From Patescibacteria group bacterium (GTDB lineage: Bacteria > Patescibacteriota > SICC01): a DNA stretch of 42,796 bases. Position numbers and translations under genes: made by a program. The stretch spans positions 1-42,796 of the forward strand of contig SICC01000002.1 of assembly GCA_009694835.1 (NCBI GenBank), in the 5' to 3' direction. Below are positions 24,415-36,427 of this stretch, piece by piece. Each line of letters starts with the position of its first letter. Position 1 is the stretch's first letter. A model generated the notes under the pieces. It made no database searches. It was not told where the DNA came from and was given only the letters and a program-made list of their open reading frames with translations.

Positions 24415-25656
24415 ATGGCTAGCGAACACATCGTCGTCGGACTCGACGTCGGGACACAATTTGTCCGGACGGTTGTTGGGCAACGGGTTGAGGATGAGCC
24501 TGAACCGTTGATTCTCGGTGTCGGACTGACTCCCTCGGCCGGCCTGCGGCGCGGAATCGTGGTTGATGTCGAAGAGACGGTCAAAGCCATTACGGCCGCT
24601 ATCGAAGAAGCCGAGCGTATTTCCGGTGTCTCGGTCGGCAATGCCTTTGTAAATATTTCCGGTAACCATATCGAATCGCAGAATTCGCGTGGGGTGGTAG
24701 CGGTCTCACGAGCTGATTCTGAAATCGGGGCAGAAGATGTCGCCAGAGCAATTGAAGCCGCCAAGGCGGTAGCCGTGCCCGCTAACAAGGAAATTATCCA
24801 TGTCTTGCCGCGAGAATATATTGTGGACGGCCAGGAGGGCATTAAGGATCCAATCGGGATGAACGGTATTCGCTTAGAGGTTGAGGCGCACGTTATCTCC
24901 GCGGCCTCACCGCAGATAAAGAACGTTACCAAGTGCGTGTACCAATCCGGCGTCGAAGTCGACGACCTGGTCTTTTCTGGACTAACTTCGTCACGCGGGG
25001 TGCTCTCGCGGCGACAGAAAGAACTGGGGGTCATTCAGCTCGACATTGGGGCTGGGGTGACTGACCTAACTATTTACGAGGAAGGGGATGTTCTTCACTC
25101 GGCGGTTATTCCGGTTGGTGGTTCACATCTCACTAACGATCTGGCTATTGGTCTTCGGACTGATACAGACATTGCCGAGCGAGTGAAGCTCGAATACGGT
25201 AGTGCCGTCCCGAAAGACATCAAGAGTAAAGAGTCAGTTGACCTCGCCAGCCTGGCTCGCGGCGACGAACACCAAGTTAGTAAGAAACTCATTGCTGAAA
25301 TCATCGAGGCTCGCATCGCGGAGATCCTGGCCTTAGTGCAAAAGGAATTGAAGAAGATTGATCGTGACGGAAAGCTTCCAGCCGGGGTTGTCCTCACTGG
25401 CGGCACTGCCAAGTTACCTGGTTTAGTTGATGCAACTAAGAACATTCTCGGATTACCGGCTCAGGTCGGGTTTCCGTCAGAGCTTAAGGGGATGGCCGAA
25501 AAGATTGATGATCCTTCCTTTGCAACCTCAATTGGCCTGATGCTATGGGGCTTTGATCAAGGTGAATCAAATCGAACAAGCAAACGGTTCGGTAACTTGC
25601 CAGGCTCCCAGTACCTTGATAAGGTACGAGGTGTTGTCAAGCAATTCTTGCCGTAG
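24415..25656 (+). CDS. ftsA: cell division protein FtsA
   Basis: 413 aa. Actin-fold motifs VGLDVGT and DIGAGVTD. Confidence 0.93.
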   Translation: MASEHIVVGLDVGTQFVRTVVGQRVEDEPEPLILGVGLTPSAGLRRGIVVDVEETVKAITAAIEEAERISGVSVGNAFVNISGNHIESQNSRGVVAVSRADSEIGAEDVARAIEAAKAVAVPANKEIIHVLPREYIVDGQEGIKDPIGMNGIRLEVEAHVISAASPQIKNVTKCVYQSGVEVDDLVFSGLTSSRGVLSRRQKELGVIQLDIGAGVTDLTIYEEGDVLHSAVIPVGGSHLTNDLAIGLRTDTDIAERVKLEYGSAVPKDIKSKESVDLASLARGDEHQVSKKLIAEIIEARIAEILALVQKELKKIDRDGKLPAGVVLTGGTAKLPGLVDATKNILGLPAQVGFPSELKGMAEKIDDPSFATSIGLMLWGFDQGESNRTSKRFGNLPGSQYLDKVRGVVKQFLP

Positions 25657-25704
25657 TAAACTTATTCGCTACCCCGCAAGATAACCAATGAGGAGCTAGG
25701 ATAT

Positions 25705-26811
25705 ATGGAAGTAAAGCCGGAAATTGAAACTTTCGCGCGTATTAAAGTCGTCGGCGTCGGCGGCTCTGGTTGCTCGTCTATCGAGCGCATGCTGAAGTCC
25801 CACATGCGGGGCATTGAATTTATAGCGATCAACTCAGATGCTCAGGCGCTGCATAATTCGAATGCTCCTTTGAAGATTCATATTGGTAAAGAAACCACAC
25901 GTGGCCTTGGAGCTGGTGCTGATCCAGAACTCGGCCGTAAGGCGGCCGAAGAGGATCGCGGCGAGGTTGCTGAAGCCCTCCGTGGAGCGGACATGATTTT
26001 CATCACCTACGGTGCCGGTGGTGGTACCGGAACCGGGGCCGCCCCGCTGATTGCCGATATTGCCCGAGAGGTCGGTGCCCTCACGGTTGGTGTGGTCACG
26101 CGTCCGTTCGCCTTCGAAGGTCAACGCCGACGCCGCGTGGCTGACACGGGGATTGAAGAGATTAAGGACAGGGTCGACACCCTGATTACCATTCCGAACG
26201 ACCGCCTCTTACAGGTAGTCGACAAAAAAACCTCAATGGTGGACGCTTTCTCCGTAGTTGATGATGTCTGTCGCCAAGGTGTCCAGGGAATCTCTGATCT
26301 GATTACCCAACACGGAATGATCAACGTCGACTTCGCAGACGTTAAAGCCATTATGACCAACGCCGGTAGTGCCCTGATGGGTATCGGCCATGGTACTGGT
26401 GAAAACCGAGCGATTGAAGCGGCTACCAGCGCGATTGATTCGCCACTCTTGGAGCTCTCAATCGACGGAGCCCGAGGCTTACTATTCAATATTACGGGTG
26501 GTAACGACCTCACCATGCACGAGATTGATGAGGCTGCTAAGGTCATCACTGACGCTGCTGATCCGGATGCGAATGTTATCTTCGGGGCGGTTATTGATGA
26601 GGAACTAGCTGGGGAGATCAAGATCACGGTCATCGCCACCGGATTCGCCGGTGAGGCTAAGAAGCCAGCCCCCACCCAAGCTACTGACGAATCAACCGAC
26701 GCTCCACTCGCTGGAGACCCAGAACCAGTAGTTAGCGAAGACACGGTCAGCGAAGAAGCCTCTTCGGAAGAGCTTGATGTCCCGGCGTTCATTCGCCGAA
26801 AAATGGGCTGA
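25705..26811 (+). CDS. ftsZ: cell division GTPase FtsZ
   Basis: 368 aa. Contains the tubulin signature [13 protein letters not shown] and the C-terminal peptide [14 protein letters not shown] lies upstream. Confidence 0.97.
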
Positions 26812-26833
26812 TTTTCTACTAACGACTTTGAAA

Positions 26834-26863
26834 AAGACGGTGGCCACACGGTCGCCGTCTTTT
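26834..26863 (+). terminator. intrinsic terminator after ftsZ
   Basis: AAGACGGTGGCC-acac-GGTCGCCGTCTT, a 12-bp stem including 2 G-U pairs, running into TTTT. Confidence 0.7.
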
Positions 26864-27029
26864 AGTTGTGATCTTTATTTCGAAAGATCCGCAGTAATAG
26901 GCTCCAAAGATATTGATCAGAAAGCCGATTATTATTGTCCACTTGTTCAACTAGGCACGAAAACTAGTGGTGTGATTCAGGTGCAAAACGCACAACCAAC
27001 CTGCACGAACAAACTCCGCCTCTAAGGGG

Positions 27030-27059
27030 TTGACACATACAAAATCTAGTAGATAGAGT
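27030..27059 (+). promoter_or_regulatory. candidate promoter of the nrdR-nrdJ operon
   Basis: TTGACA (27030-27035), 18 nt, TAGAGT (27054-27059). Confidence 0.45.
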
Positions 27060-27086
27060 AGGGAGGTGACCCAAGATGTTGTAGGT
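27042..27086 (+). promoter_or_regulatory. candidate tandem operator (NrdR-box-like) over the nrdR promoter/leader
   Basis: AAATCTAGTAGAT (27042-27054) and AGATGTTGTAGGT (27074-27086) share 9 of 13 positions. They are spaced 32 bp apart, the spacing reported for paired NrdR boxes. The match to the published box consensus is weak by eye. Confidence 0.3.
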
Positions 27087-27164
27087 TAGTTGCTTTCCAG
27101 CCGAGCTGGCTGCAGCAAAACCATTAAAAAACCCATAACAACGGACACAAAATCATATAAACCT

Positions 27165-27668
27165 ATGCAATGCCCCACCTGCCAAGCCGACTCGTTACGC
27201 GTGATTGATTCACGTGACGTTGAAGCCGAACCCGCCATTCGCCGTCGTCGCGAGTGTGAAAAATGCGGGTTCCGTTTTACTACGTATGAGCGTGTCGAAG
27301 CGCCGCACCTGTTAGTCATCAAGAAGGATGGTCGACGGGAACAGTTCTCGCGAGAGAAGCTTTCCCGCGGAGTCTGGCGAGCCTGCGAGAAGCGACCGAT
27401 CTCGGAAGCGGCCATCGAGGCTGCAGTTTCGGCGGTTGAGCAGGACTTACGGGCCTGCGGTGAAACCGAAATCAATGTGGCAGCGGTTGGAGAGTCGGCT
27501 ATGGTTCATCTGAAGAAACTTGATCAGGTGGCCTATATTCGATTCGCCAGCGTCTATCGCGAGTTTACTGACTTGGACGAGTTCCAGGCGGAAGTAAAGA
27601 AGACCCTCAAAAATACACTTAGTCCGAAACGTCCTAACGTTAAGACTGAGAAACTAGTAACCAAATAA
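27165..27668 (+). CDS. nrdR: transcriptional repressor NrdR
   Basis: Start moved to ATG 27165 (MQCPTCQADSLRVIDSR), which gives the zinc ribbon CPTC...CEKC followed by an ATP-cone. 167 aa. Confidence 0.92.
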   Translation: MQCPTCQADSLRVIDSRDVEAEPAIRRRRECEKCGFRFTTYERVEAPHLLVIKKDGRREQFSREKLSRGVWRACEKRPISEAAIEAAVSAVEQDLRACGETEINVAAVGESAMVHLKKLDQVAYIRFASVYREFTDLDEFQAEVKKTLKNTLSPKRPNVKTEKLVTK

Positions 27669-27684
27669 ACATAAGGAGTTCCCG

Positions 27685-30078
27685 GTGCCCAAAACTGACA
27701 CAGCGGCTACGCCATCATCCACCCGCAAAACTGATTCGAAGAAAATCTTAAAGCAGACAGCGCTTGATAAGCCGATTGAGGTTGAGAACGGCACCGTCTT
27801 AGAGGGTATTCGCAAAAAAGTCTTCATGGATCGCTATTCCTGGAAAGACGGCAAAGGTAACCCAATGGAGCAGCACCCGGAACAGATGTGGGGCCGCGTC
27901 GCTAAAGCCCTGGCCCAAATCGAGACCCCTAATCAGCAAAAACATTGGGAGAAGAAGTTTTACGAAGCCATGGAAGGATTCAAGTTTGTCCCAGCCGGAC
28001 GAATTTTGTCTGGGGCTGGCACGGGCCACCAAGTGACGTACTACAACTGCTTTGTGCTTCCGTCACCAGAAGACAGCCGCGGCGGCATTATCGACAATCT
28101 CAAGGATATGATCGAGATTATGTCGCGAGCCGGCGGCGTTGGTATCAACCTAAGCTCACTGCGACCGCGCGGGGCGCACATCAAGACCGTTAACGGCACC
28201 AGCTCAGGTCCCATCCCATGGGCGGAACTCTATTCTGTCGCGACCGGCCAGGTTATTCAGCAAGGCGGTTCTCGCCGCGGTGCCCTGATGTTGATGATTA
28301 ACGACGACCACCCAGACGTAGAGGAGTTTATTACGGTTAAGCAAGACCAGGGTAAATTGACTGGCGCCAACCTGTCCGTCTGCGTGTCTGACAACTTTAT
28401 GAAAGCGGTCAAGGAAGACGCCGACTGGGATCTGAAGTGGGAAGGTAAAACTATGAAGACGGTCAAAGCTAAAGATCTCTGGGGTAAGATTTGCGACTCC
28501 GCCTGGGCCTCAGCTGAACCGGGACTTCACTTTATGGAGCGTTCTAACAAGCGTTCAAACACCTGGTACTACGAGAAATTGATTTCAACCAACCCGTGTG
28601 GTGAGCAGCCGCTCGGGGCCTGGGCGGTCTGTAACCTCGGTGCGCTTAACCTTTCGAACTTTGTGGTCGGGGGCACAATGGATTACGAAATGCTGGCCGA
28701 CCATTCCCGAACCGCCATTCGCGCCCTCGATAACGTCGTCGACGCCAACTACTACTTCTTCGAAGAGAACGAGAAGCAGCAGATGGGCACCCGCCGCACC
28801 GGCCTCGGTACGATGGGACTCGGTGACGCACTGATTAAGATGGAAGTTCGTTACGGTTCGGAAGAATCATTGCCGGTCATTGAAAAGATTTACAAGACCA
28901 TCCGCGATGCGGCCTACGATGAATCCGCCGAAATCGCTAAAGAGAAGTCACCGTTCCCGATGTTTGATCGCTCCAAGTACTTGAAAGGTCATTTCATCAA
29001 GCAACTACCAAAGGCGGTCCGCGAGAAGATCAGCAAGTATGGCATCCGAAACGCTGTCCTCTTAACCCAGGCTCCAACCGGCACGACCTCCTTGGTCTCC
29101 GGTGCCAGCTCGGGCATTGAGCCGGTCTACGACTTCGCCATGAAGCGCAAGGATCGCACCGGTGAGCACATTCTGTACCATGAGCTCTACAAGACCTGGA
29201 TTGATGAGCACCCAGACGAGGAAGTTCCGGACTTCTTCGTCAGCGCTAATGATTTGACCCCGCTCGAACACGTCAAAGTTCAGGCCAAGATCCAGGATTA
29301 CACTGACAGCTCGATTTCTAAAACCGTCAACGCTCCAAATGACCACACCGTCGAAGACGTCCGTGAGCTCTACGAAGCGGCCTACGACATGGGACTCAAG
29401 GGCGTAACCTACATGCGAGACGGCTCACGAGAGGGTGTCCTGGAGCATATTCCGAAGGAAGGCGAGAAGAAGGCAGAGGAACCAGTCGCTGTGGTTACCC
29501 CGCAAGCTTCACCAACCCCGGCTCCACGACCACAAGTCCTGGAAGGGAAGACGGTCCGGATGGTGACGGCCTACGGCAAGATGTACGTCACTATGAACGT
29601 CGATACGCAAGGTAACCTGATTGAAGTCTTTGCCACCCTTGGTAAGGCTGGCGGACTCGGGGCCTCGATGACCGAAGCGATTACTCGATTAATTTCGACC
29701 AGTCTGCGCGCCGGTGTTTCGCCGCGAGCGATCATTAAGGAGCTCCGGGGCATTACCGATCAACCGTTCGGATTCGGTGACAACCGAGTCAGCAGTGTGG
29801 CTGACGCCGTCGGTAAGGCCATGGAAGACTACCTGTACCCGAAACTCGACTTATCAGTGTCCGAGCCAGTCAAGGCCGAGTTGCCAGTCGATGCGGCTTC
29901 CCAAGCCGCCGAAGCTGATGCCAAGGCCGCTGAAGCTGCCGCCACCCAACAGCCGCACGCTATCTCGATGGACTCCACTAGTAAGTTGGCCGGGATCTGC
30001 CCGGATTGCGGTGGGCCGCTCGAGTTTGCCTCGGGTTGTAAGGTCTGCCACTCCTGTGGATATTCAGCCTGTGGCTGA
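27685..30078 (+). CDS. nrdJ: adenosylcobalamin-dependent (class II) ribonucleotide reductase
   Basis: 797 aa, GTG start after AAGGAG. Active-site motif TNPCGEQPL, and a C-terminal Cys-rich tail CPDCGGPLEFASGCKVCHSCGYSACG. Confidence 0.92.
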   Translation: MPKTDTAATPSSTRKTDSKKILKQTALDKPIEVENGTVLEGIRKKVFMDRYSWKDGKGNPMEQHPEQMWGRVAKALAQIETPNQQKHWEKKFYEAMEGFKFVPAGRILSGAGTGHQVTYYNCFVLPSPEDSRGGIIDNLKDMIEIMSRAGGVGINLSSLRPRGAHIKTVNGTSSGPIPWAELYSVATGQVIQQGGSRRGALMLMINDDHPDVEEFITVKQDQGKLTGANLSVCVSDNFMKAVKEDADWDLKWEGKTMKTVKAKDLWGKICDSAWASAEPGLHFMERSNKRSNTWYYEKLISTNPCGEQPLGAWAVCNLGALNLSNFVVGGTMDYEMLADHSRTAIRALDNVVDANYYFFEENEKQQMGTRRTGLGTMGLGDALIKMEVRYGSEESLPVIEKIYKTIRDAAYDESAEIAKEKSPFPMFDRSKYLKGHFIKQLPKAVREKISKYGIRNAVLLTQAPTGTTSLVSGASSGIEPVYDFAMKRKDRTGEHILYHELYKTWIDEHPDEEVPDFFVSANDLTPLEHVKVQAKIQDYTDSSISKTVNAPNDHTVEDVRELYEAAYDMGLKGVTYMRDGSREGVLEHIPKEGEKKAEEPVAVVTPQASPTPAPRPQVLEGKTVRMVTAYGKMYVTMNVDTQGNLIEVFATLGKAGGLGASMTEAITRLISTSLRAGVSPRAIIKELRGITDQPFGFGDNRVSSVADAVGKAMEDYLYPKLDLSVSEPVKAELPVDAASQAAEADAKAAEAAATQQPHAISMDSTSKLAGICPDCGGPLEFASGCKVCHSCGYSACG

Positions 30079-30129
30079 TATTAAATAGTCGCCTGTGGCT
30101 GATACCAGCACTTAACAAACCTCTTTATG

Positions 30130-30250
30130 TACGAACGCCGGGAAAGCGCTGTGAGAATCAGCCGCGGTCCCGCCACTGTGATTCCGTCACCTTTTGTAGA
30201 CGTCAGAAACGGCAAAAGATAACGGATAAGTCAGAGCACCGACGTTCCGC
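30130..30250 (+). promoter_or_regulatory. cobalamin (B12) riboswitch aptamer
   Basis: P1: GAACG (30133-30137) with CGTTC (30243-30247). Core: GGGAAAGCGCTGTGAGAATCAGCCGCGGTCCCGCCACTGTGA (30140-30181). Nested helices TCCGT/ACGGA and CTTTTG/CAAAAG. B12-box-like AAGTCAGAGCACCG (30228-30241). Confidence 0.8.
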
Positions 30251-30324
30251 ATTACTTCACCCGACCTACGGTCGATAGGTCCAGGGATTACTCCTGGATA
30301 GGGGTATTTTTTTAATCAAAAACC

Positions 30325-32106
30325 ATGACACCACCAGAAACACTCACCAGAATAGAAACCGGGCTATCACTCGATGAATTCAAGGAATCAGTTCGAGCCG
30401 TCATCGAGACGCACCCTGGTATCTCTCCTGAGCTTCGCTCGTACATGCTGCCGTCCGTCGATCGTTTAACTCAGATCGAGCCGAACCCGGAGGCATTTAC
30501 CCTCAGTGATCTCGAACACTTCGACCGACGACGGTCAGAAATTGAGTCGGAATATTCGAATCGGATGAGCGAACCAGGTATCTACTACGACGGGAACTTT
30601 GCAGCCGACGTCGAAGCTTGGCTTTCTGGGGATGTGTCGACGACTCGCGCCACGATTGAATCGCGCTTCCGAAGGGCCACCGAAGATGAAGAACCTGAAC
30701 GACTAAGTGGTGGACAAGCAAGACTCACTCAACCGGAACGAGCTCGAACGCCTGTTACGATGGCAGCAACACGCGGAGTAACTTCTGGCCGTGAAGACAA
30801 GACTGATGAACGAAAAACTGTTCATAATGTGGATGAATTTTCTTTAGAGCGTGAGGAAATACCAGTTGGTCAGGGGGAACAGCCGTTGCTTGACTGGGGA
30901 CCGATAACATCGCGTTTACTCAGGCTTCGGGCTGATCGCGCTTCAATCCAAGAGCGCATTCTTTTAGAACGGGGATTGGCCAGCAAGCAGTTTCCACCTC
31001 CAGAACTTTTGGACCGGGCGGATCGAATTGCCGACGTCGAGCAGTCGCCCATTGTCACCAAGCCAGAACCACGCGAAGATACTAGCGATACCAAATCACC
31101 TCAACCGGAAGAAACTGATTATGAACAACCACCTCCTATTGAACTTCATCGATCTGCTGGCGATAACCCTCCAGCTACTAATCATCGTCCGGGTGATCAT
31201 GAGTTGGCTGCGACCGAACCCGACCAGTCCGATTGGGAGGTTCTTGTTGGAGGTGACGGATCCGATTCTGAAACCGTTTCAGATGATTCTTCCCTCGGTG
31301 GCGGGGCTCGACTTCAGCCCGATTCTGGCCTTGATTACGATCCAAGTACTCCAGAGCTTGGCACAGAATTATCTGTAATTAAAGAAAACTCATCGCGAGA
31401 CATTGTCCTCTGGGAATTCCCCGAAGCCGAGGAACCCGCTAGGATAGAAGCCAGTATGGAGCAGACCGAAACGTATGAACAACTTACCGGACAAACTGGA
31501 TCAGATTTGGAACCACGCCGCCGACCGGGGGCCGGACGTCTTAGTGACCTTAGTGGTCGGATTCATCGTGGTCGAGGTGACCATAGCAATCCTGCGCTAC
31601 CTGTTCCGGGTCTCGAATCTGCCAATCGGCTTGAAGCGGATCCTGTTCTCGCTGATCCGAGTCTTCCTCTGGTTGATTCTCTTCCTGGTGATAGTCCAGA
31701 CGCTGGGTCTGAACAGCCTGCTGGTGGCCGTGACCGGCTCGTCAGTGATCGTGGCGATCTTCCTAGCCCCAGGGCTCGGACCGATGGTCCAGGACGTCAT
31801 CGCCGGCTTGTCGCTGGCCAGCGATCGGTTTTATCAACCCGGAGCCAAGGTCGTGGCCGGGGACAAACAGACGGAGGGCACCATCGAGACGCTCGACTTA
31901 CGCAAGACCAAGATTCGGGATTCGAAGGGGAAACTGCACGTCATTTCCAACTCCCAGATCGATCGCGGGGAGTGGGTAGCCTTAGAACCGAACGAGCCCG
32001 CATTGAAGCGGCGCCGCAGGTTAGCTACGCTACTAAAGAAGAAGCGTTAGACCTGTCATCACCAGGGATGCTGTCGGCAGAAATCCTGATTCCCTCAGGA
32101 GAGTAG
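30325..32106 (+). CDS. ORF of unknown family (acidic, low complexity); true 3' extent uncertain
   Basis: 593-codon open frame. The first ~265 codons have no competing ORF and show a G-rich first codon position (many GAA/GAT/GAG/GCC). The remainder overlaps yggT and the MscS-like gene in another frame and ends inside the ileS T-box leader. Confidence 0.4.
   Translation: MTPPETLTRIETGLSLDEFKESVRAVIETHPGISPELRSYMLPSVDRLTQIEPNPEAFTLSDLEHFDRRRSEIESEYSNRMSEPGIYYDGNFAADVEAWLSGDVSTTRATIESRFRRATEDEEPERLSGGQARLTQPERARTPVTMAATRGVTSGREDKTDERKTVHNVDEFSLEREEIPVGQGEQPLLDWGPITSRLLRLRADRASIQERILLERGLASKQFPPPELLDRADRIADVEQSPIVTKPEPREDTSDTKSPQPEETDYEQPPPIELHRSAGDNPPATNHRPGDHELAATEPDQSDWEVLVGGDGSDSETVSDDSSLGGGARLQPDSGLDYDPSTPELGTELSVIKENSSRDIVLWEFPEAEEPARIEASMEQTETYEQLTGQTGSDLEPRRRPGAGRLSDLSGRIHRGRGDHSNPALPVPGLESANRLEADPVLADPSLPLVDSLPGDSPDAGSEQPAGGRDRLVSDRGDLPSPRARTDGPGRHRRLVAGQRSVLSTRSQGRGRGQTDGGHHRDARLTQDQDSGFEGETARHFQLPDRSRGVGSLRTERARIEAAPQVSYATKEEALDLSSPGMLSAEILIPSGE
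31121..31378 (+). CDS. yggT: YggT/YlmG-family membrane protein
   Basis: 85 aa from ATG 31121. The sequence LLIIVRVIMSWLRPNPTSPIGRFLLEVTDPILKPFQMILPSVAGLDFSPILALITIQVL matches the YggT signature (..SW.....NP......T.P.L.P.R...P..G.D.SP...). A position upstream of ileS is typical for ylmG. Confidence 0.85.
   Translation: MNNHLLLNFIDLLAITLQLLIIVRVIMSWLRPNPTSPIGRFLLEVTDPILKPFQMILPSVAGLDFSPILALITIQVLQSLAQNYL
31475..32050 (+). CDS. short MscS-family mechanosensitive channel-like protein
   Basis: 191 aa. Three TM segments, then the MscS pore-helix/beta-domain pattern LAPGLGPMVQDVIAGLSLASDRFYQPGAKVV..GTIETLDLRKTKIRDSKGKLHVISNSQI. It lacks the usual C-terminal alpha/beta domain. Confidence 0.7.
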   Translation: MNNLPDKLDQIWNHAADRGPDVLVTLVVGFIVVEVTIAILRYLFRVSNLPIGLKRILFSLIRVFLWLILFLVIVQTLGLNSLLVAVTGSSVIVAIFLAPGLGPMVQDVIAGLSLASDRFYQPGAKVVAGDKQTEGTIETLDLRKTKIRDSKGKLHVISNSQIDRGEWVALEPNEPALKRRRRLATLLKKKR

Positions 32107-32205
32107 AGCCGACCGGGACGGCCCGTTACAGCCTGAGTAAGCGCCCCGTCACCGGGGAATCGAGGTGGTACCGCCCTGATAGAACGGGGCCCTCGAACCA
32201 CTCGA
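32052..32205 (+). promoter_or_regulatory. T-box leader of ileS
   Basis: T-box sequence AATCGAGGTGGTACCGCC (32158-32175), preceded by hairpin CCCCG-tcac-CGGGG (32144-32157). Upstream stem GTCGGC (32073-78) pairs with GCCGAC (32108-13) and has an AGAGTAGA internal loop. ATC (Ile) triplets at 32058-60 and 32083-85. A competing helix forms between 32160-32169 and 32197-32205, just before the ATG. Confidence 0.7.
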
Positions 32206-32211
32206 TTTGCT

Positions 32212-35200
32212 ATGCCTAAGAAAATCACGATTATTGCTCCGAAAACTAACGTCTCGTTCCCGAAGCTGGAACAAGATGTCTTGAAACTTTGGAAAAAGGA
32301 AGGGACGTTTGAACAAAGTCTCAAGCAGACTAAGAAAGGGAAACGCTTTACGTTCTACGATGGGCCACCGTTTGCGACCGGTTTACCCCACTACGGAAAC
32401 TTGATGCAAGGCATCATCAAGGATACGATCCCTCGGTTCCGGACTATGCAGGGTCGGTATGTTGAACGTCGCTTTGGGTGGGACTGTCATGGCTTGCCAG
32501 TTGAATATGGCTTAGAAAAAGAGCTGGGAATTAAGAATCGTCAAGAGATCCTCGAAATGGGTGTCGGCAAATTCAACGACGCCTGTCGTGCTATTGTCCT
32601 GCGTTACGCCGGCGAATGGCGAGCAATTACCGAACGAATTGGCCGGTGGGTCGATATGGATAACGACTACAAAACGATGGATCCGGATTATATGGAATCG
32701 GTTTGGTGGGTGATCAAGCAACTCTGGGAAAAGGGACTTCTCTATGAAGGTCGCCAGAGCATGCACATCTGCCCGCGCTGCGCTACACCACTTTCCAATT
32801 TTGAGGTGCTCCAAGGCTATGCCGATCGAGATGACCCCGCCGTCTACGTCAAACTACCGCTGCGTCACGATCAAGACGTTTCACTGCTTATTTGGACGAC
32901 GACCCCGTGGACGCTTCCGGGAAACGTCTTGGCGGCCGTTAATAAGCACCTGACGTACGTGGAAGTTGAACACGACGGCCAGCGATTAGTGCTCGCAGAG
33001 TCACGGCTCGCGGCCGTCTTCCCAAATAATGACTATACGTTGCGACGAACCTTACGAGCCGAAGAGCTCATTGGTCAGCAGTACGAACCCCCATTCCCCA
33101 AGCGAAACCTCACCGGGACTAGTTATGAAGTCGTAGCCGCCGATGCCGTCAATGCTGATGAGGGCACCGGCATCCTGCACGTGGCTCCAGCCTTCGGGGA
33201 AGAGGATATGGAGATCGGAAAACGCGAGCAGGCTGCCTTCATTCAGCACATCGACATCACTGGAACGATAACCAACGAGGTGCCGCGCTATCGCGGCCTC
33301 CAGGCTCTGGACGCTAATCAGCAGATTATCGCCGACCTGAAGAAGTCGAAACGGCTGCTCCGATCCGAGACCATCCGCCACAGCTATCCGCATTGCTGGC
33401 GGTGTGAAACTCCGCTGCTTAACTTTGCCACTAAATCCTGGTTCGTAGCCGTAGCGAACATCAAACCAGAATTGTTGCGGACTAACGAGCAGATCACGTG
33501 GCTACCCGAAAGCGTAAAAGACGGTCGGTTTGGTAAATGGTTAGAGGCTGCCCGTGACTGGTCAATTTCTCGTAATCGATTTTGGGGCAACCCGCTGCCA
33601 ATTTGGCGCTGCCCAGACGGTCATCTAACCGTTATTGGTTCACTCGATGAACTCGAAAAACTGTCCGGCAAACGGCCAAAGGACCTTCATAAGCAGTACG
33701 TCGACAAGATTACCTTCGACTGCCCGGAGTGTAATGGGAAGGCGACCCGCATTGAGGATGTCCTCGATTGCTGGTTTGAGTCAGGTAGCATGCCGTACGC
33801 CAAAGAACATTACCCGTTCCAGCATAAAAAAGAATTTGAAGAGTCCTTTCCGGCCGACTTCATTGCCGAAGCCTTAGATCAAACCCGTGGTTGGTTCTAC
33901 ACCCTCCACGTGCTCGGCGTGGCACTCTTTGACTCGCCAACGTTTAAGAACGTCGTCTCAACCGGTATCATCGTCGCCGAAGATGGGCAGAAGATGTCAA
34001 AGAGTAAACAAAACTACCCCGATCCGGACAAGGTCTTGGATAAATACGGGGCGGATGCTCTGCGGCTCTACATCCTTTCATCTCCAGTGGTACGCGGTGA
34101 CGATCTTCGGTTCCGCGAGAAGGGGCTTGAGGAAATTCAACGCAACTTTGTTTCGACGCTCTACAACGTCTACTCGTTCTTCACGACCTACGCCGCGGTC
34201 GACGAATGGAGCCCGCCAACTAAACCATCGCGACAAACGAATGTGCTCGACCAATGGGTTACCTCACGGCTCAACTCGCTGACCAAGGAAACTACCGAGG
34301 CTCTCGAGCAGAATGACTTGATGACCGCCAGCCGCGGCCTGATGAGCTTCCTCGATGAACTTTCAAACTGGTACGTCCGCCGTAGTCGCCGGCGCTTCTG
34401 GAAATCGGACAGCGACACTGACAAGGAACAGGCCTACGCCACGCTCTACACCGTCCTGACGACGTTTACCCGGCTAGCAGCGCCCATTACGCCGTTTATC
34501 ACCGATCACCTCTACCGTGAGCTGACAGGGAAGAGTGTTCACTTGGCGGAATGGCCGACGGCTACTGGATCTAAAGTCGATTCAGACTTAGAGCGACAGA
34601 TGTCAGTGGCGCGCCAAGTGGTCCGGCTCGGATTGGCCGCTCGGACCCAAGCCGGCATCAAAGTTCGCCAACCAGTGGCAGAAGCTACCGTGGTAGATCG
34701 AATCAAGTCAGGTATCGTTAAGAATAAATCTATTGTTCAATTAGTCTCTGATGAATTGAACGTAAAGAAGCTCGCGTTCATTACCAAAGAGTCTGGTTTC
34801 GTCAAAGAAGTTATTCAGCCCGTCCCGTCAGAAGTGGGACCGCTGTTTGGCCGCGAAGCCCAGCAGGTGATCGAGGAGATTAAGGCCGGAAAGGTTCAGC
34901 GAAAAGGCCAGAAGGTCTTTGTTCGAGGTCGCGAACTTCCCGAGGATGCGGTTCGAGTGACCTGGGCTCCGGTTGGTGACTTGGTTGTCGAAAGTTCCGC
35001 TGACGTGGTGGTCGCTATCAATCCCGACTTAAACGAAGACTTAGTCGATGAAGGCCGCGCCCGCGAATTGATTCGAGCCTTCCAAGAATTGCGAAAGTCA
35101 TCTGGCCTGGATGTGTCTGATCGGATTACCGCTACCGCCGAAACAGACAATCCCGATTTGGAGCGAATGCTCGATGCCCATCACGACTTGATTGCGACGG

Positions 35201-35307
35201 AGATTCTCGCTCAGTCGCTTGAGCAAGCCTCGAGTGCGGGTGACAATACAAAGTCAGTGCAGATTGATGACAAGACTGTGTCGATTTCCTTGAGCAAAAT
35301 CTCCTAG
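32212..35307 (+). CDS. ileS: isoleucine--tRNA ligase
   Basis: 1031 aa. HIGH-type motif (PHYGN), KMSKS, and a CP1 editing domain. Confidence 0.96.
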   Translation: MPKKITIIAPKTNVSFPKLEQDVLKLWKKEGTFEQSLKQTKKGKRFTFYDGPPFATGLPHYGNLMQGIIKDTIPRFRTMQGRYVERRFGWDCHGLPVEYGLEKELGIKNRQEILEMGVGKFNDACRAIVLRYAGEWRAITERIGRWVDMDNDYKTMDPDYMESVWWVIKQLWEKGLLYEGRQSMHICPRCATPLSNFEVLQGYADRDDPAVYVKLPLRHDQDVSLLIWTTTPWTLPGNVLAAVNKHLTYVEVEHDGQRLVLAESRLAAVFPNNDYTLRRTLRAEELIGQQYEPPFPKRNLTGTSYEVVAADAVNADEGTGILHVAPAFGEEDMEIGKREQAAFIQHIDITGTITNEVPRYRGLQALDANQQIIADLKKSKRLLRSETIRHSYPHCWRCETPLLNFATKSWFVAVANIKPELLRTNEQITWLPESVKDGRFGKWLEAARDWSISRNRFWGNPLPIWRCPDGHLTVIGSLDELEKLSGKRPKDLHKQYVDKITFDCPECNGKATRIEDVLDCWFESGSMPYAKEHYPFQHKKEFEESFPADFIAEALDQTRGWFYTLHVLGVALFDSPTFKNVVSTGIIVAEDGQKMSKSKQNYPDPDKVLDKYGADALRLYILSSPVVRGDDLRFREKGLEEIQRNFVSTLYNVYSFFTTYAAVDEWSPPTKPSRQTNVLDQWVTSRLNSLTKETTEALEQNDLMTASRGLMSFLDELSNWYVRRSRRRFWKSDSDTDKEQAYATLYTVLTTFTRLAAPITPFITDHLYRELTGKSVHLAEWPTATGSKVDSDLERQMSVARQVVRLGLAARTQAGIKVRQPVAEATVVDRIKSGIVKNKSIVQLVSDELNVKKLAFITKESGFVKEVIQPVPSEVGPLFGREAQQVIEEIKAGKVQRKGQKVFVRGRELPEDAVRVTWAPVGDLVVESSADVVVAINPDLNEDLVDEGRARELIRAFQELRKSSGLDVSDRITATAETDNPDLERMLDAHHDLIATEILAQSLEQASSAGDNTKSVQIDDKTVSISLSKIS

Positions 35308-35311
35308 TTAC

Positions 35312-36427
35312 ATGAACGAACGAATCCGACATTTCGATTGGATACTAATGATTGCCGTGGCAATTCTGCTGACCTTCAGCGTAGCGGTAATTTACGCTAC
35401 GACTTTCTCTGATTCCGGCGGAGCCTCGGATGCTATCCAACAGACCTTGTTTGCCTTAGTCGGCTTCGGACTCGTCGTGGTATTTGGCGTGACCGACTAC
35501 CGCGTCTTTCGCCGCATGGCCGGAACGCTCTATGCGCTATCGCTCATATCACTTTTGTTGGTGAAGGTGATTGGGTCATCAGCACTTGGCGCCACCCGTT
35601 GGATTGATCTGGGGTTTTTCCAGTTCCAGCCCTCGGAGTTTGTAAAGATTGTGATGGTCATTGTGCTGGCCAAGATTTTTGCTGATCATCAGAAGACGCT
35701 TGATACTCCACGAACGTTTTTTAAGTCTCTGGCGTATACCTTAGTTCCGGTCGTTTTGGTGGCCTCACAGCCCGACCTCGGAACCGCCATGGTGATTTTG
35801 GCCACCTGGGCCGGCATGGCCATTGCGGCCGGTGTCCCGAAACGCTTCTTTGCCTGGGGAGTTGCCGCCGCCACCGCAGCCCTGCCAATTTTCTGGTTTT
35901 TCATTTTCCACGACTACCAGAAAAATCGATTACTGACCTTTATTAACCCAGCCAATGACCCGCTCGGTGCGGGCTACAACGTCAAGCAAGCGCAGATTGC
36001 GGTTGGTTCTGGCGGGATGTGGGGGCGCACCTTAGGGCAGGGAACCCAGTCACAACTGAACTTCTTGCCCGTCCAACACACCGACTTTATTTTTGCGGTG
36101 GTAGCCGAAGAACTGGGATTTGTGGGTGCTGTGCTACTGATCCTCTTACTCTTAACGGTGGCCTGGCGAGCCCTCTTGATTGCTCGTGGCGCCAAAGATT
36201 TCTACGGGTTTGAACTGGCTATGGGCATCATGGTCGTCATCCTCTTCCAAACTTTGATTAACGCCGGTATGAACATGGGCATTATGCCCGTCACTGGTAT
36301 CCCGCTGCCGTTTGTCAGTTACGGCGGCAGTTCGGTGCTGATGTTACTGTTCGCCGTGGGTATTCTGCAGAGTATCGCCTCACGCCGAGACAAGGGGCGA
36401 TTGGCCTCTAATCCTGTTCTTGGCTGA
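35312..36427 (+). CDS. rodA: SEDS-family peptidoglycan glycosyltransferase (RodA/FtsW)
   Basis: 371 aa, about 10 TM segments. Contains FDWILM, QPSEFVKI and PLPFVSYGGSS. Confidence 0.85.
   Translation: MNERIRHFDWILMIAVAILLTFSVAVIYATTFSDSGGASDAIQQTLFALVGFGLVVVFGVTDYRVFRRMAGTLYALSLISLLLVKVIGSSALGATRWIDLGFFQFQPSEFVKIVMVIVLAKIFADHQKTLDTPRTFFKSLAYTLVPVVLVASQPDLGTAMVILATWAGMAIAAGVPKRFFAWGVAAATAALPIFWFFIFHDYQKNRLLTFINPANDPLGAGYNVKQAQIAVGSGGMWGRTLGQGTQSQLNFLPVQHTDFIFAVVAEELGFVGAVLLILLLLTVAWRALLIARGAKDFYGFELAMGIMVVILFQTLINAGMNMGIMPVTGIPLPFVSYGGSSVLMLLFAVGILQSIASRRDKGRLASNPVLG

What the first reader, a model, noticed from the sequence alone, without database searches (positions are those of the whole stretch)
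30130..30324. Cobalamin riboswitch downstream of the B12-dependent RNR gene, controlling genes with no known B12 link
The conserved cobalamin-riboswitch core is readable on the + strand: GGGAA...GAGAATC...GCGGTCCCGCCACTGTGA, a closing P1 helix (30133-37 with 30243-47), nested P6-like helices, and a B12-box-like AAGTCAGAGCACCG. It is followed by small hairpins (CGACC-tac-GGTCG; TCCAGG-gattact-CCTGGA) and a T7 run (30307-30313) that ends 11 nt before the ATG at 30325. The context is atypical. The element sits about 55 nt after the stop of nrdJ, which consumes AdoCbl. Known B12 riboswitches usually precede B12-independent isozymes, cobalamin transporters or cobalamin synthesis genes. Here it precedes an ORF I cannot assign to any family, then yggT and a truncated MscS-like channel gene. 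No btu or ECF-type cobalamin transporter is visible in the window. My inference is a B12-repressed module of unknown function. It could be an undescribed cobalamin acquisition or homeostasis system in an organism whose only RNR in this window depends on B12. Alternatively, the riboswitch may attenuate read-through from nrdJ into the yggT-ileS-rodA block.
Basis: partly seen in the sequence, partly recalled or inferred. Interest (0 to 1): 0.8.

Follow-up and report, generated by a model that had tools for sequence, protein, structure and literature searches.

The report
B12 riboswitch gating an orphan gene
A genuine vitamin-B12-sensing RNA switch sits directly after the B12-dependent ribonucleotide reductase gene of an uncultured Saccharibacteria-like bacterium, and most likely stops transcription into a lineage-specific gene of unknown function when B12 is plentiful, which makes that gene a lead for B12 biology in these minimal bacteria.

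Summary
Window 30133-30247 is a cobalamin riboswitch aptamer. It scores below Rfam's cut-off here (RF01482, 43.2 vs 50 bits, E 1e-6). The orthologous element after nrdJ in four Saccharibacteria/Patescibacteria MAGs passes the RF00174 cut-off, and 13 of 44 pairs covary. The expression platform is a standard OFF switch: a P13 hairpin, a CCAGGG/CCUGG antiterminator (30281-30297), and an intrinsic terminator (30289-30306 plus U7). This architecture is kept in seven loci even though the terminator stem sequences differ. The gene linked to the switch is not yggT. It is an orphan ORF (ORF-X, 30325-) with a conserved ~115-aa helical N-domain (dN/dS 0.16-0.43). No family, structure or fold match was found. 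In two metagenome contigs ORF-X follows the same riboswitch with different downstream genes. I found no recognisable promoter or terminator between nrdJ and the aptamer, so the switch probably also acts as a B12-dependent end of the nrdR-nrdJ transcript. A role in B12 acquisition is untested. An unexpected extra: the ORF-X frame stays open through the complete yggT/ylmG and MscS-like genes in all five genomes, and synonymous divergence of those two genes is depressed. The riboswitch is a new member of a known kind. Its regulon is new.

The parts
27685..30078 (+). nrdJ, the B12-dependent class II ribonucleotide reductase. It lies immediately upstream and probably supplies the transcript that runs into the riboswitch.
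   Evidence: TIGR02504 NrdJ_Z 7.6e-173; PF02867, PF00317, PF12637. It is 74-75% identical to NrdJ of Saccharibacteria/Patescibacteria MAGs.
30112..30118 (+). Conserved A/T-rich motif TTAACAA (TTAATAA in relatives), 13-20 nt upstream of P1. Its role is unknown.
   Evidence: Invariant T34 T35 A36 A37 A39 A40 in alignment A4, although four of the genomes are 62-64% GC. It does not fit a sigma-70 -10/-35 pair.
30133..30247 (+). Cobalamin riboswitch aptamer. It comprises P1/P2 (GAACG 30133-37 with CGUUC 30243-47), the conserved core GCGGUCCCGCCACUGUGA 30164-81, a variable P6 hairpin 30183-30227, and the B12 box 30228-41.
   Evidence: RF01482 43.2 bits, E 1.1e-6. Orthologues pass the RF00174 gathering score. 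Covariation in helices 1, 2 and 4.
30260..30286 (+). P13-like hairpin. Inner stem GACCUA 30263-68 with UAGGUC 30276-81, loop CGGUCGA 30269-75, outer CCC 30260-62 with GGG 30284-86. It is the presumed partner of L5 (30169-73) in a kissing-loop contact.
   Evidence: Matches the 3' hairpin of the RF01482 model. 100% paired in 7 loci, with one A-U to G-C compensatory change. It forms in the MFE of 6 of 7 platforms. The kissing contact is inferred; all bases involved are invariant.
30281..30297 (+). Antiterminator hairpin CCAGG(G)-N6-CCUGG. It shares G84-86 with the P13 outer stem and 30293-95 with the terminator 5' arm.
   Evidence: Conserved as CAGGG-N7-9-CCCUG in all 7 loci, -6.6 to -10.7 kcal/mol. 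Two compensatory pairs (helix 6).
30289..30313 (+). Intrinsic terminator: stem UACUCCU/AGGGGUA, loop GGAU, then U7 (30307-13).
   Evidence: Found by the terminator scan. The equivalent hairpin plus U6-7 is present in all 7 loci with different stem sequences: ACACGCC/GGCGUGU, CGCGCC/GGCGCG, AUACCCU/AGGGUAU.
30325..32106 (+). ORF-X, an orphan ORF of 593 codons. The conserved N-domain is aa 1-115 and a second conserved block is aa ~190-235. From about aa 266 the frame overlaps yggT and the MscS-like gene.
   Evidence: No Pfam, NCBIfam, PHROGs, PDB or Foldseek match. Homologues P0002 and P0003 are 44% and 39% identical over ~250 aa. Orthologues occur in L003-L006. dN/dS 0.16-0.43. The sequence is identical in an independent run.
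31121..31378 (+). yggT/ylmG-family small membrane protein (85 aa), in the +1 frame relative to ORF-X.
   Evidence: PF02325 8e-19. 59-64% identical in L003-L006.
31475..32050 (+). Short MscS-like membrane protein (191 aa; TM helices plus beta-domain only), in the +1 frame relative to ORF-X.
   Evidence: PF00924 8e-7. Orthologues of the same length (184 aa) occur in L003-L006, so it is not a truncation artefact.
32038..32197 (+). T-box-like leader of ileS. It marks the likely downstream limit of the B12-gated unit.
   Evidence: RF00230 39.5 bits (gathering score 93), E 1.6e-7, with the GGUGGUACCGC motif.

Best explanation
A cobalamin riboswitch lies in the 246-nt gap between nrdJ and an orphan gene, ORF-X, in a Saccharibacteria-like (CPR) genome. 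I propose that it works as a transcriptional OFF switch.

With a corrinoid bound, the aptamer docks the P13 hairpin. This holds GGG 30284-86 in the P13 outer stem, and perhaps CGG of L13 against CCG of L5. The antiterminator CCAGG/CCUGG therefore cannot form. The terminator UACUCCU/AGGGGUA plus U7 then forms, and RNA polymerase stops 11 nt before the ORF-X start codon.

Without ligand, the antiterminator forms and transcription continues into ORF-X and, on the same RNA, the yggT/ylmG and MscS-like genes.

No recognisable promoter or terminator separates nrdJ from the aptamer. Most of the RNA entering the switch therefore probably comes from the NrdR-controlled nrdR-nrdJ promoter. If so, the switch is also the B12-dependent 3' end of the nrdRJ message. 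ORF-X would then be made mainly when dNTPs are low (NrdR derepressed) and B12 is low.

Shown: aptamer identity, conservation, covariation, the three alternative helices, the riboswitch-ORF-X linkage, and that ORF-X is a constrained coding sequence.

Inferred: the direction of switching, co-transcription with nrdJ, which corrinoid is sensed, and what ORF-X does. My best guess for ORF-X is a cytoplasmic, partly disordered protein that serves the NrdJ/B12 economy during B12 shortage.
For: Aptamer:
- RF01482 43.2 bits, E 1.1e-6, full-length match.
- RF00174 above gathering score at the same position after nrdJ in L003, L004, L005 and L006.
- 13 of 44 pairs compensatory, 0/500 shuffles, slid controls at most 2.

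Expression platform:
- Terminator hit 30289-30306 plus T7.
- P13 plus terminator is the MFE in 6 of 7 loci, with an antiterminator of comparable energy in all 7. The terminator stems differ in sequence but not in shape.
- The P13 register is supported by a compensatory change.

Linkage to ORF-X:
- The riboswitch 3' half lies directly upstream of the ORF-X homologues in L001 and L002, whose downstream genes are unrelated.
- ORF-X orthologues follow the riboswitch in L003-L006.

ORF-X is coding:
- dN/dS is 0.16 for the N-domain (L001 vs L002) and 0.30-0.43 among L003-L006.

Co-transcription with nrdJ:
- The only promoter-like site upstream of the riboswitch, on either strand, is at 27030, before nrdR. 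No terminator-like site lies between 30078 and 30289.

Outgroup:
- The gammaproteobacterial nrdJ locus L007 has no riboswitch.
Against: - The window copy itself does not reach any Rfam gathering score.
- Only three independent lineages plus one L001/L002 lineage are available. The kissing-loop bases are invariant, so that contact is untested.
- CPR promoters are poorly known, and the conserved TTAATAA motif upstream of P1 could be part of a dedicated promoter. Co-transcription with nrdJ is therefore not established.
- In the window's own platform the MFE is the antiterminator form, not the terminator form. This is compatible with a switch but shows that the energetics are finely balanced.
- The upstream context in L001 and L002 is unknown because both contigs end inside the riboswitch.
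- There is no experimental data on ligand binding or termination.
- ORF-X function is entirely unknown.
Confidence: 0.75

Rival explanations
1. ORF-X, YggT/YlmG and the MscS-like protein would form an undescribed corrinoid uptake or homeostasis system. It would be repressed by B12 and feed the only RNR, as riboswitch-linked BtuG/H, CbrT or BtuM were once orphans.
For: - The genes lie under a B12 OFF switch and next to the B12-consuming enzyme in five genomes.
- Two of the three products are membrane proteins.
- No known B12 transporter is present in 42.8 kb.
- Established knowledge: B12-repressed orphan genes have repeatedly turned out to be transport or binding proteins.
Against: - In L001 and L002 the riboswitch and ORF-X occur without yggT or MscS downstream, so the membrane proteins are not the conserved partners.
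- ORF-X has no signal peptide or TM segment. It is acidic and largely disordered, with pLDDT 54.
- From my own knowledge of Firmicutes and Actinobacteria, where the order is ftsZ-sepF-ylmG-...-divIVA-ileS, yggT/ylmG next to ftsZ and ileS is the ordinary division-cluster arrangement. Its presence here therefore needs no B12 explanation.
- Only one window of the genome was seen, so a transporter may lie elsewhere.
Confidence: 0.2
2. The switch exists mainly for nrdJ. It would be a B12-dependent 3' end or insulator of the nrdR-nrdJ mRNA. It could stabilise the message with a ligand-bound structured 3' end, or uncouple the strongly regulated nrd promoter from the downstream division and envelope genes. 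Under this reading ORF-X expression is a by-product.
For: - No promoter-like or terminator-like site lies between the nrdJ stop and the aptamer, and the gap is only 54 nt.
- The position directly after nrdJ is conserved in five genomes.
- The riboswitch terminator is the only terminator-like signal downstream of nrdJ.
Against: - The riboswitch stays attached to ORF-X in L001 and L002, where the downstream genes differ. The U-tract is always 6-24 nt from the ORF-X start. This argues that ORF-X is a genuine target.
- ORF-X is under purifying selection.
- No case of a cobalamin riboswitch acting as a 3'-UTR stabiliser turned up in the literature searches.
- Whether nrdJ precedes the riboswitch in L001 and L002 is unknown.
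Confidence: 0.25
3. The switch couples cell division or nucleoid handling to dNTP supply. ORF-X would occupy the SepF/DivIVA-like slot of the division cluster (ftsA-ftsZ-...-ylmG-...-ileS-rodA). It would act as a division or growth modulator induced when B12, and hence NrdJ activity, is limiting.
For: - The gene order is ftsA, ftsZ, nrdR, nrdJ, riboswitch, ORF-X, ylmG-type yggT, MscS-like, ileS with a T-box-like leader, rodA.
- ORF-X is helical plus disordered, like many division adaptors.
- The N-terminus MxxSPE(T/L) loosely recalls the DivIVA MPLTPED start (from memory; a lead, not a test).
Against: - There is no Pfam hit to SepF, DivIVA or GpsB even at E up to 1, and no fold match.
- In L001 and L002 ORF-X is not next to division genes.
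- The argument rests purely on synteny.
Confidence: 0.12
4. The element is a decaying or non-regulatory remnant, or it controls translation rather than transcription.
For: - The window copy is below Rfam gathering scores.
- ORF-X has no Shine-Dalgarno sequence.
Against: - The core is invariant and the stems covary across lineages in which ORF-X has diverged to 22-24% identity.
- A hairpin plus U6-7 is conserved with changing stem sequence.
- Most genes in this window lack a Shine-Dalgarno sequence, so its absence here is uninformative.
- The start codon lies outside all conserved helices.
Confidence: 0.05

Closest known systems
Cobalamin riboswitch, Rfam clan CL00101 (RF00174 Cobalamin; RF01482 AdoCbl; RF01689 AdoCbl-variant)
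   Same: - It has the conserved core (GGUCCCGCCACUGUGA), the B12 box, and P1-P6 helices with covariation.
- It has a 3' P13 hairpin as in the RF01482 model.
- It uses terminator/antiterminator OFF logic.
- Orthologues pass the RF00174 gathering score.
   Different: - The window copy scores below every gathering score.
- P6 is a plain hairpin of variable length (about 22 nt in relatives, about 45 nt here) rather than a conserved peripheral extension. The architecture therefore looks class-II-like and ligand selectivity (AdoCbl vs MeCbl/HOCbl) cannot be read off.
- It follows a B12-dependent enzyme gene and precedes an orphan gene, instead of transport, biosynthesis or B12-independent isozyme genes.
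Cobalamin riboswitches upstream of B12-independent ribonucleotide reductase genes (nrdAB/nrdDG)
   Same: They link B12 sensing to the RNR system. A likely example was recovered here: L106 has RF00174 at 121.8 bits upstream of an RNR-like gene.
   Different: In that arrangement the switch represses a B12-independent substitute. Here the only RNR seen is B12-dependent, the switch lies downstream of it, and the gated gene is not an RNR.
Riboswitch-linked orphan B12 proteins later shown to bind or transport corrinoids (BtuG, BtuH, CbrT, BtuM)
   Same: An unannotated gene sits directly under a B12 OFF switch in an organism that presumably cannot make B12. This rests on established knowledge and on PMC8941943 and PMC13616437, listed.
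   Different: Those proteins are surface-exposed or membrane proteins. ORF-X has no signal peptide or TM segment, is acidic and largely disordered, and has no detectable homologue outside a handful of MAGs.
ylm/division-cluster tail of Gram-positive bacteria (ftsZ-sepF-ylmG-ylmH-divIVA-ileS with a T-box)
   Same: ftsA-ftsZ lie upstream, a ylmG-type YGGT gene is present, and ileS follows with a T-box-like leader and then rodA.
   Different: nrdR-nrdJ, the riboswitch and ORF-X lie between ftsZ and ylmG. An MscS-like gene occupies the ylmH/divIVA position. No SepF or DivIVA signature is found in ORF-X.

Membership tests
Cobalamin riboswitch (Rfam CL00101) | The covariance-model score of the window copy reaches a family's gathering score. 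| tested here: not met
   RF01482 43.2 bits against a gathering score of 50, E 1.1e-6. No hit at gathering score in the whole window or in 30060-30340. This is an operational cut-off rather than a structural feature, so the rows below carry more weight.
Cobalamin riboswitch (Rfam CL00101) | Orthologous copies at the same locus reach the gathering score. | tested here: met
   RF00174: L003 50.0, L006 42.9, L005 42.7, L004 33.1 bits against a gathering score of 31.5. All lie directly after nrdJ. They align with the window copy with the core invariant.
Cobalamin riboswitch (Rfam CL00101) | Conserved core and B12 box. | tested here: met
   GCGGTCCCGCCACTGTGA 30164-81 is invariant in 7 loci. The B12 box AAGTCAGAGCACCG is at 30228-41.
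Cobalamin riboswitch (Rfam CL00101) | P1-P6 helices supported by covariation. | tested here: met
   94.5% of cells paired. 13 pairs have changes on both sides. 0/500 shuffles reach this, and slid controls give 0-2.
Cobalamin riboswitch (Rfam CL00101) | L5-L13 kissing-loop contact that couples the aptamer to the expression platform. | tested here: inconclusive
   The P13 hairpin is present and 100% paired with one compensatory change. L13 CGG and L5 CCG are complementary but invariant, so there is no covariation evidence for the contact.
Cobalamin riboswitch (Rfam CL00101) | Binds a corrinoid and changes gene expression. | not testable with these tools
   This needs in-line probing or ITC, and termination assays.
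Cobalamin riboswitch (Rfam CL00101) | Usual regulon: B12 transport, B12 or cobalt metabolism, or B12-independent isozymes. | tested here: not met
   The downstream genes are orphan ORF-X, YGGT and an MscS-like gene. This concerns context, not membership of the RNA family.
Class I (AdoCbl-selective) cobalamin riboswitch | Conserved P6 peripheral extension. | tested here: not met
   P6 is a simple hairpin of about 22 nt in L003-L006. In the window it has a 24-nt (vs L003) or 20-nt (vs L004-L006) unconserved insertion. The architecture resembles class II, so ligand selectivity stays open.
Intrinsic-terminator expression platform | GC-containing hairpin followed directly by a U-tract, with a mutually exclusive alternative helix. 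| tested here: met
   Terminator scan hit at 30289-30306 plus T7. Terminator and competing CAGGG/CCCUG helix are present in all 7 loci.
Any known protein family (for ORF-X) | Significant sequence or fold match. | tested here: not met
   - Pfam, NCBIfam and PHROGs: nothing.
- PDB profile search: 0 hits at E up to 10.
- Foldseek best hit E 2.7 on a low-confidence model.
- HMM search against 1.84 billion representatives: only the window protein, P0002, and a repeat artefact.
YGGT/YlmG (PF02325) | Pfam domain above the gathering score. | tested here: met
   68.3 bits against a cut-off of 27, E 8e-19, for 31028-31378.
MscS mechanosensitive channel (PF00924) | Beta-domain plus C-terminal alpha/beta domain. 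| tested here: inconclusive
   Only the beta-domain matches (29.5 bits against 20.2). The protein ends about 30 aa later. The same short form occurs in L003-L006, so it is a short MscS-like protein and not a demonstrated channel.
T-box leader (RF00230) | Covariance-model score reaches the gathering score. | tested here: not met
   39.5 bits against 93, E 1.6e-7, with a conserved T-box sequence. Probably a short variant; not pursued.

The most novel reading that the evidence does not exclude
The B12-gated RNA would encode three proteins in two reading frames. ORF-X would be a real protein of about 600-680 aa whose C-terminal half is overprinted on the complete ylmG and MscS-like genes. The set would be a Saccharibacteria-specific B12-starvation module that serves the cell's B12-dependent ribonucleotide reductase, for example through corrinoid capture or delivery, or through a replication/division checkpoint.

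Evidence that does not exclude this:
- The ORF-X frame is open through both genes in all five genomes.
- The frame offset and the yggT-MscS spacer lengths (96, 63 and 138 nt) are conserved modulo 3.
- yggT and MscS in the window are depleted in third-position T.
- Their synonymous divergence is the lowest of 5-13 genes in every pairwise comparison.
- The sequence is identical in two independent assemblies.
Probability: 0.15. Interest if true: 0.85.

Novelty: new member of a known kind. Interest (0 to 1): 0.55.

Why it matters
Saccharibacteria and other CPR bacteria have minimal genomes and live on hosts. This one appears to depend on a B12-requiring enzyme for DNA precursors, but how such cells obtain or manage B12 is unknown. 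The full-text searches here found no paper on cobalamin riboswitches in this group.

Genes under B12 riboswitches have repeatedly led to new B12 transport and binding proteins. A conserved switch that gates a lineage-specific orphan gene next to nrdJ is therefore a concrete, testable entry point.

The arrangement is unusual as a regulatory design. The switch lies after the B12-consuming enzyme gene, and an NrdR-controlled promoter is the only recognisable one upstream. This would make ORF-X respond to dNTP shortage and B12 shortage together.

The apparently maintained kilobase-long overlap of ORF-X with two membrane-protein genes would be a rare case of extensive same-strand dual coding in bacteria, if translation is confirmed. 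It also has a practical effect: gene callers annotate ORF-X and drop yggT and the MscS-like gene in these genomes.

Tried and rejected
1. A whole-window Rfam scan at gathering scores found nothing. Only the E-value scan recovered the aptamer.
2. Back-translated pattern scans with the ORF-X N-domain found no relatives in GTDB species genomes or JGI metagenomes.
3. A word-indexed search with the 7-sequence alignment, and another with the L004-type N-domain, both returned nothing.
4. An HMM search of 1.84 billion representatives returned only P0001, P0002 and P0004. P0004 is a tandem-repeat artefact.
5. The 19-nt core GCGGTCCCGCCACTGTGAT is common in JGI metagenomes (at least 120 loci). None of those loci carries the P13 motif, ORF-X, yggT or MscS next to it, so they are unrelated cobalamin riboswitches.
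6. The AlphaFold model of ORF-X residues 1-266 is poor (pLDDT 54). Foldseek against the PDB gave only chance-level hits.
7. I considered that ORF-X is a frameshift or assembly artefact that fuses a short gene to a shadow frame. I rejected this because the identical sequence is in an independent run and the open frame recurs in four other genomes.
8. I considered a sigma-70 promoter built on the conserved TTAATAA motif. Spacing to any -35-like hexamer is inconsistent between genomes and the scan finds none.
9. I considered that conservation of the ORF-X frame beyond MscS in L003-L006 reflects coding. It is better explained by the ileS T-box-like leader.
10. The MFE pairing of 30119-24 with the terminator 3' arm is not conserved in relatives and was dropped.
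11. Literature searches for Saccharibacteria or CPR together with cobalamin riboswitch found nothing relevant.
Full report

- GGGAAAG 30140-46
- GAGAATC 30153-59
- GCGGTCCCGCCACTGTGA 30164-81
- GAACG 30133-37 opposite CGTTC 30243-47
- AAGTCAGAGCACCG 30228-41
- T7 30307-13
- ATG 30325, 246 nt after the nrdJ stop (30076-78)

A whole-window Rfam scan at gathering scores finds nothing. The same is true for 30060-30340 alone. With E-value reporting on 29950-30500, the AdoCbl model RF01482 matches end to end (model 1-149, window 30114-30290, + strand). The score is 43.2 bits against a gathering score of 50, E 1.1e-6. Two lower-scoring clan members overlap it. Taken alone, the window copy is a sub-threshold but clearly non-random hit.

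**2. Relatives settle the identity.**

NrdJ (27685-30078; TIGR02504 7.6e-173) finds four MAGs labelled Candidatus Saccharibacteria / Patescibacteria with 74-75% identical NrdJ (L003-L006). It also finds a gammaproteobacterial outgroup at 55% (L007).

All four CPR loci carry an RF00174 Cobalamin hit above the gathering score directly after nrdJ. The scores are 50.0, 33.1, 42.7 and 42.9 bits against a cut-off of 31.5. The outgroup has none.

The five sequences align with an invariant core. RNAalifold gives 44 pairs, 13 of them with compensatory changes. The counting tool gives 94.5% paired cells. None of 500 shuffles reaches the observed covariation, and structures slid by 1-3 columns give 0-2 compensatory pairs.

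This is a genuine, conserved cobalamin riboswitch. P6 is a plain hairpin of about 22 nt in the relatives and carries a 20-24-nt unconserved insertion in the window. No conserved class-I peripheral extension is present, so I cannot say which corrinoid form is sensed.

**3. Expression platform.**

Three helices compete.

(a) P13. The inner stem is GACCUA 30263-68 with UAGGUC 30276-81. The loop is CGGUCGA. The outer stem is CCC 30260-62 with GGG 30284-86. This is the register of the RF01482 model. It is 100% paired in seven loci, with an A-U to G-C compensatory change in L001 and L002.

(b) Antiterminator. CCAGG(G) 30281-86 pairs with CCUGG 30293-97.

(c) Terminator. UACUCCU 30289-95 pairs with AGGGGUA 30300-06, followed by U7. 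The terminator scan finds it.

In L003, L004/L005, L006 and L001/L002 the terminator stem sequences are different: ACACGCC/GGCGUGU, CGCGCC/GGCGCG, GCGCC/GGCGC and AUACCCU/AGGGUAU. Each is still followed by U6-7, and each overlaps a CAGGG...CCCUG helix of similar energy. P13 plus terminator is the MFE in six of seven platforms.

The simplest reading is an OFF switch. Ligand-dependent docking of P13 sequesters the GGG that the antiterminator needs, and the terminator then forms. The L5-L13 contact (CCG with CGG) is inferred, because those bases never vary.

**4. What is gated?**

The first ORF after the U-tract is ORF-X (30325-32106, 593 codons). It has no Pfam or NCBIfam match.

A search of 5.8 billion proteins found two homologues besides the window's own protein, P0002 and P0003, at 44% and 39% identity over about 250 aa. 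Their contigs, L002 and L001, begin inside the same riboswitch, and the ORF follows the U-tract. The genes downstream of ORF-X in L001 are unrelated: a 448-aa membrane-anchored protein, a small membrane protein, a tRNA and asd.

L003-L006 also have diverged ORF-X orthologues (22-24% identity to the window) directly after the riboswitch. They share the motifs MxxSPE(T/L), EPGxYYDG and LLxRLRA.

The conserved pairing is therefore riboswitch plus ORF-X. It is not riboswitch plus yggT.

ORF-X is a real coding sequence. dN/dS is 0.16 for the N-domain between L001 and L002, and 0.30-0.43 among L003-L006. The comparable values for nrdJ are 0.04-0.10.

ORF-X is an orphan:
- An HMM search of 1.84 billion representatives returns only P0001, P0002 and a repeat artefact.
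- There are no PDB, PHROGs or NCBIfam hits.
- AlphaFold gives a helical N-domain and a disordered linker at pLDDT 54. Foldseek gives only chance-level matches.

Lack of a Shine-Dalgarno sequence means little, because most genes in the window lack one.

**5. Where does the RNA come from?**

Between the nrdJ stop and P1 there are 54 nt. The scan finds no sigma-70-like promoter and no terminator there. The only promoter-like site upstream of the riboswitch, on either strand, precedes nrdR, at 27030.

A conserved A/T-rich motif (TTAACAA 30112-18; TTAATAA in relatives) stands out in the GC-rich relatives. It has no consistent -35 partner.

I therefore favour co-transcription with nrdR-nrdJ. Under this view the riboswitch terminator is also the B12-dependent end of the nrd message. 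ORF-X is then made when NrdR is derepressed and B12 is scarce. This is inference. CPR promoters are poorly characterised.

ileS has its own T-box-like leader (RF00230, 39.5 bits, E 1.6e-7, 32038-32197). The B12-gated unit probably ends before it.

**6. Function.**

Pfam scans of the window's ORFs show housekeeping genes and no recognisable B12 transporter or adenosyltransferase.

From my own knowledge of Firmicutes and Actinobacteria, the order ftsA-ftsZ-...-ylmG(yggT)-...-ileS(T-box)-rodA is the tail of the Gram-positive division cluster. The presence of yggT here therefore needs no B12 explanation.

The B12-acquisition idea remains possible but has no direct support. ORF-X is cytoplasmic-looking, acidic and partly disordered. 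The division-coupling idea rests on synteny only, and ORF-X shows no SepF or DivIVA signal.

No paper on cobalamin riboswitches in Saccharibacteria or CPR was found.

**7. An unexpected extra.**

yggT (31121-31378) and the short MscS-like gene (31475-32050) are real genes. They lie entirely inside the ORF-X frame, offset by +1. The same is true in L003-L006, where the ORF runs 639-683 codons from the conserved start.

Evidence that this is maintained:
- With genome-wide codon usage, the chance of no stop in that frame across both genes in the window is about 4e-6.
- With within-gene synonymous shuffles it is about 0.01.
- The two genes have unusually low third-position T (0.15 and 0.07, against 0.19-0.27 in the window's other genes).
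- The yggT-MscS spacers (96, 63 and 138 nt) are all multiples of three.
- In all six pairwise comparisons among L003-L006, yggT plus MscS have the lowest synonymous divergence of 5-13 genes. For example, pS is 0.11 vs 0.21 (p 1.5e-4) and 0.35 vs 0.55 (p 2.5e-8).
- The identical sequence occurs in an independent sequencing run.

Evidence against a functional tail:
- The ORF ends at different places in different genomes.
- The tail is low-complexity.
- It shows no similarity to the non-overlapping acidic tails of P0002 and P0003, which are themselves only weakly constrained (dN/dS 0.6).
- The slightly higher GC3 of the two genes in L003-L006 could contribute to the lower pS.

I record this as unexplained and as the basis of the novel case.

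**8. Verdict.**

The RNA is a new member of a known family with a standard OFF-switch mechanism. The new elements are its host group, its position after the B12-consuming enzyme gene, and its regulon: an orphan protein, with two membrane-protein genes on the same transcript and possibly overprinted.

My confidence that it is a functional cobalamin riboswitch is about 0.95. My confidence that it acts by termination upstream of ORF-X is about 0.8. I assign no specific ORF-X function more than 0.25.

Noticed in passing
window 30325-32106 vs 31121-31378 and 31475-32050; L003 10630-12549; L004 10576-12627; L005 10581-12632; L006 3387-5405: The ORF-X reading frame stays open through the complete yggT/ylmG and MscS-like genes (offset +1) in all five genomes. 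Supporting signs are conserved frame relations, depleted third-position T in the window, and the lowest synonymous divergence of all neighbouring genes. This may be extensive same-strand dual coding.
   Followed up: partly
window 32038-32197: A T-box-like leader lies upstream of ileS (RF00230, 39.5 bits, far below the gathering score of 93, E 1.6e-7, GGUGGUACCGC present). It is probably a short variant. The region is also conserved in L003-L006, where the ORF-X frame runs through it.
   Followed up: partly
window 30067-30080 and 30091-30104: An exact 14-nt direct repeat, GCCTGTGGCTGATA. The first copy contains the last nrdJ codons and the stop codon. The second lies 10 nt further on, in the spacer before the riboswitch. 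Relatives have only one copy, so this looks like a small duplication footprint.
   Followed up: no
window 30112-30118; L003 ~10445; L004 ~10375; L005 ~10383; L006 ~3181: A conserved A/T-rich motif, TTAA(T/C)AA, lies 13-20 nt upstream of P1 in all five genomes, including the 62-64% GC ones. It is not a convincing sigma-70 promoter, and its role is unknown.
   Followed up: partly
window 24415-36427: The gene order is ftsA, ftsZ, nrdR, nrdJ, riboswitch, ORF-X, ylmG-type yggT, MscS-like, ileS, rodA. This resembles the Gram-positive division-cluster tail (ftsZ-sepF-ylmG-...-divIVA-ileS), with nrdRJ, the riboswitch and ORF-X placed where sepF would be (the comparison is from memory).
   Followed up: no
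window 30325-32106 (records ERZ1305449 and SRR31412735, L128): The gene calls on record in two public assemblies (ERZ1305449, SRR31412735) give the 593-aa ORF-X and omit yggT and the MscS-like gene altogether. These two membrane proteins are therefore likely missing from annotations of this clade.
   Followed up: partly
L128 1-344 (window ~27326-27668): The independent assembly is identical to the window over 7.8 kb except for one 1-nt indel, which splits nrdR into two ORFs. This is either a sequencing error or strain variation in nrdR.
   Followed up: no
L001 1-140 and L002 1-140: Two contigs from one sample (ERZ27297438) both start at the same base inside the riboswitch and are identical through it, then diverge inside ORF-X (about 70% identity). 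They are either two strains or two paralogous riboswitch-ORF-X copies, and the shared riboswitch sequence may have caused the assembly break. The upstream gene is unknown.
   Followed up: no
L106 3760-3957 (- strand): This metagenome locus shares the 19-nt core. It has a canonical, high-scoring cobalamin riboswitch (121.8 bits) upstream of an RNR-like gene, which is the textbook arrangement that the window's arrangement contrasts with.
   Followed up: no
window 27090-27164: The nrdR ORF as listed starts at a TTG 25 codons upstream of the NrdR family match. A good Shine-Dalgarno sequence plus ATG just upstream opens only a 2-codon mini-ORF (ATG TTG TAG). The true nrdR start is probably near 27165.
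   Followed up: no
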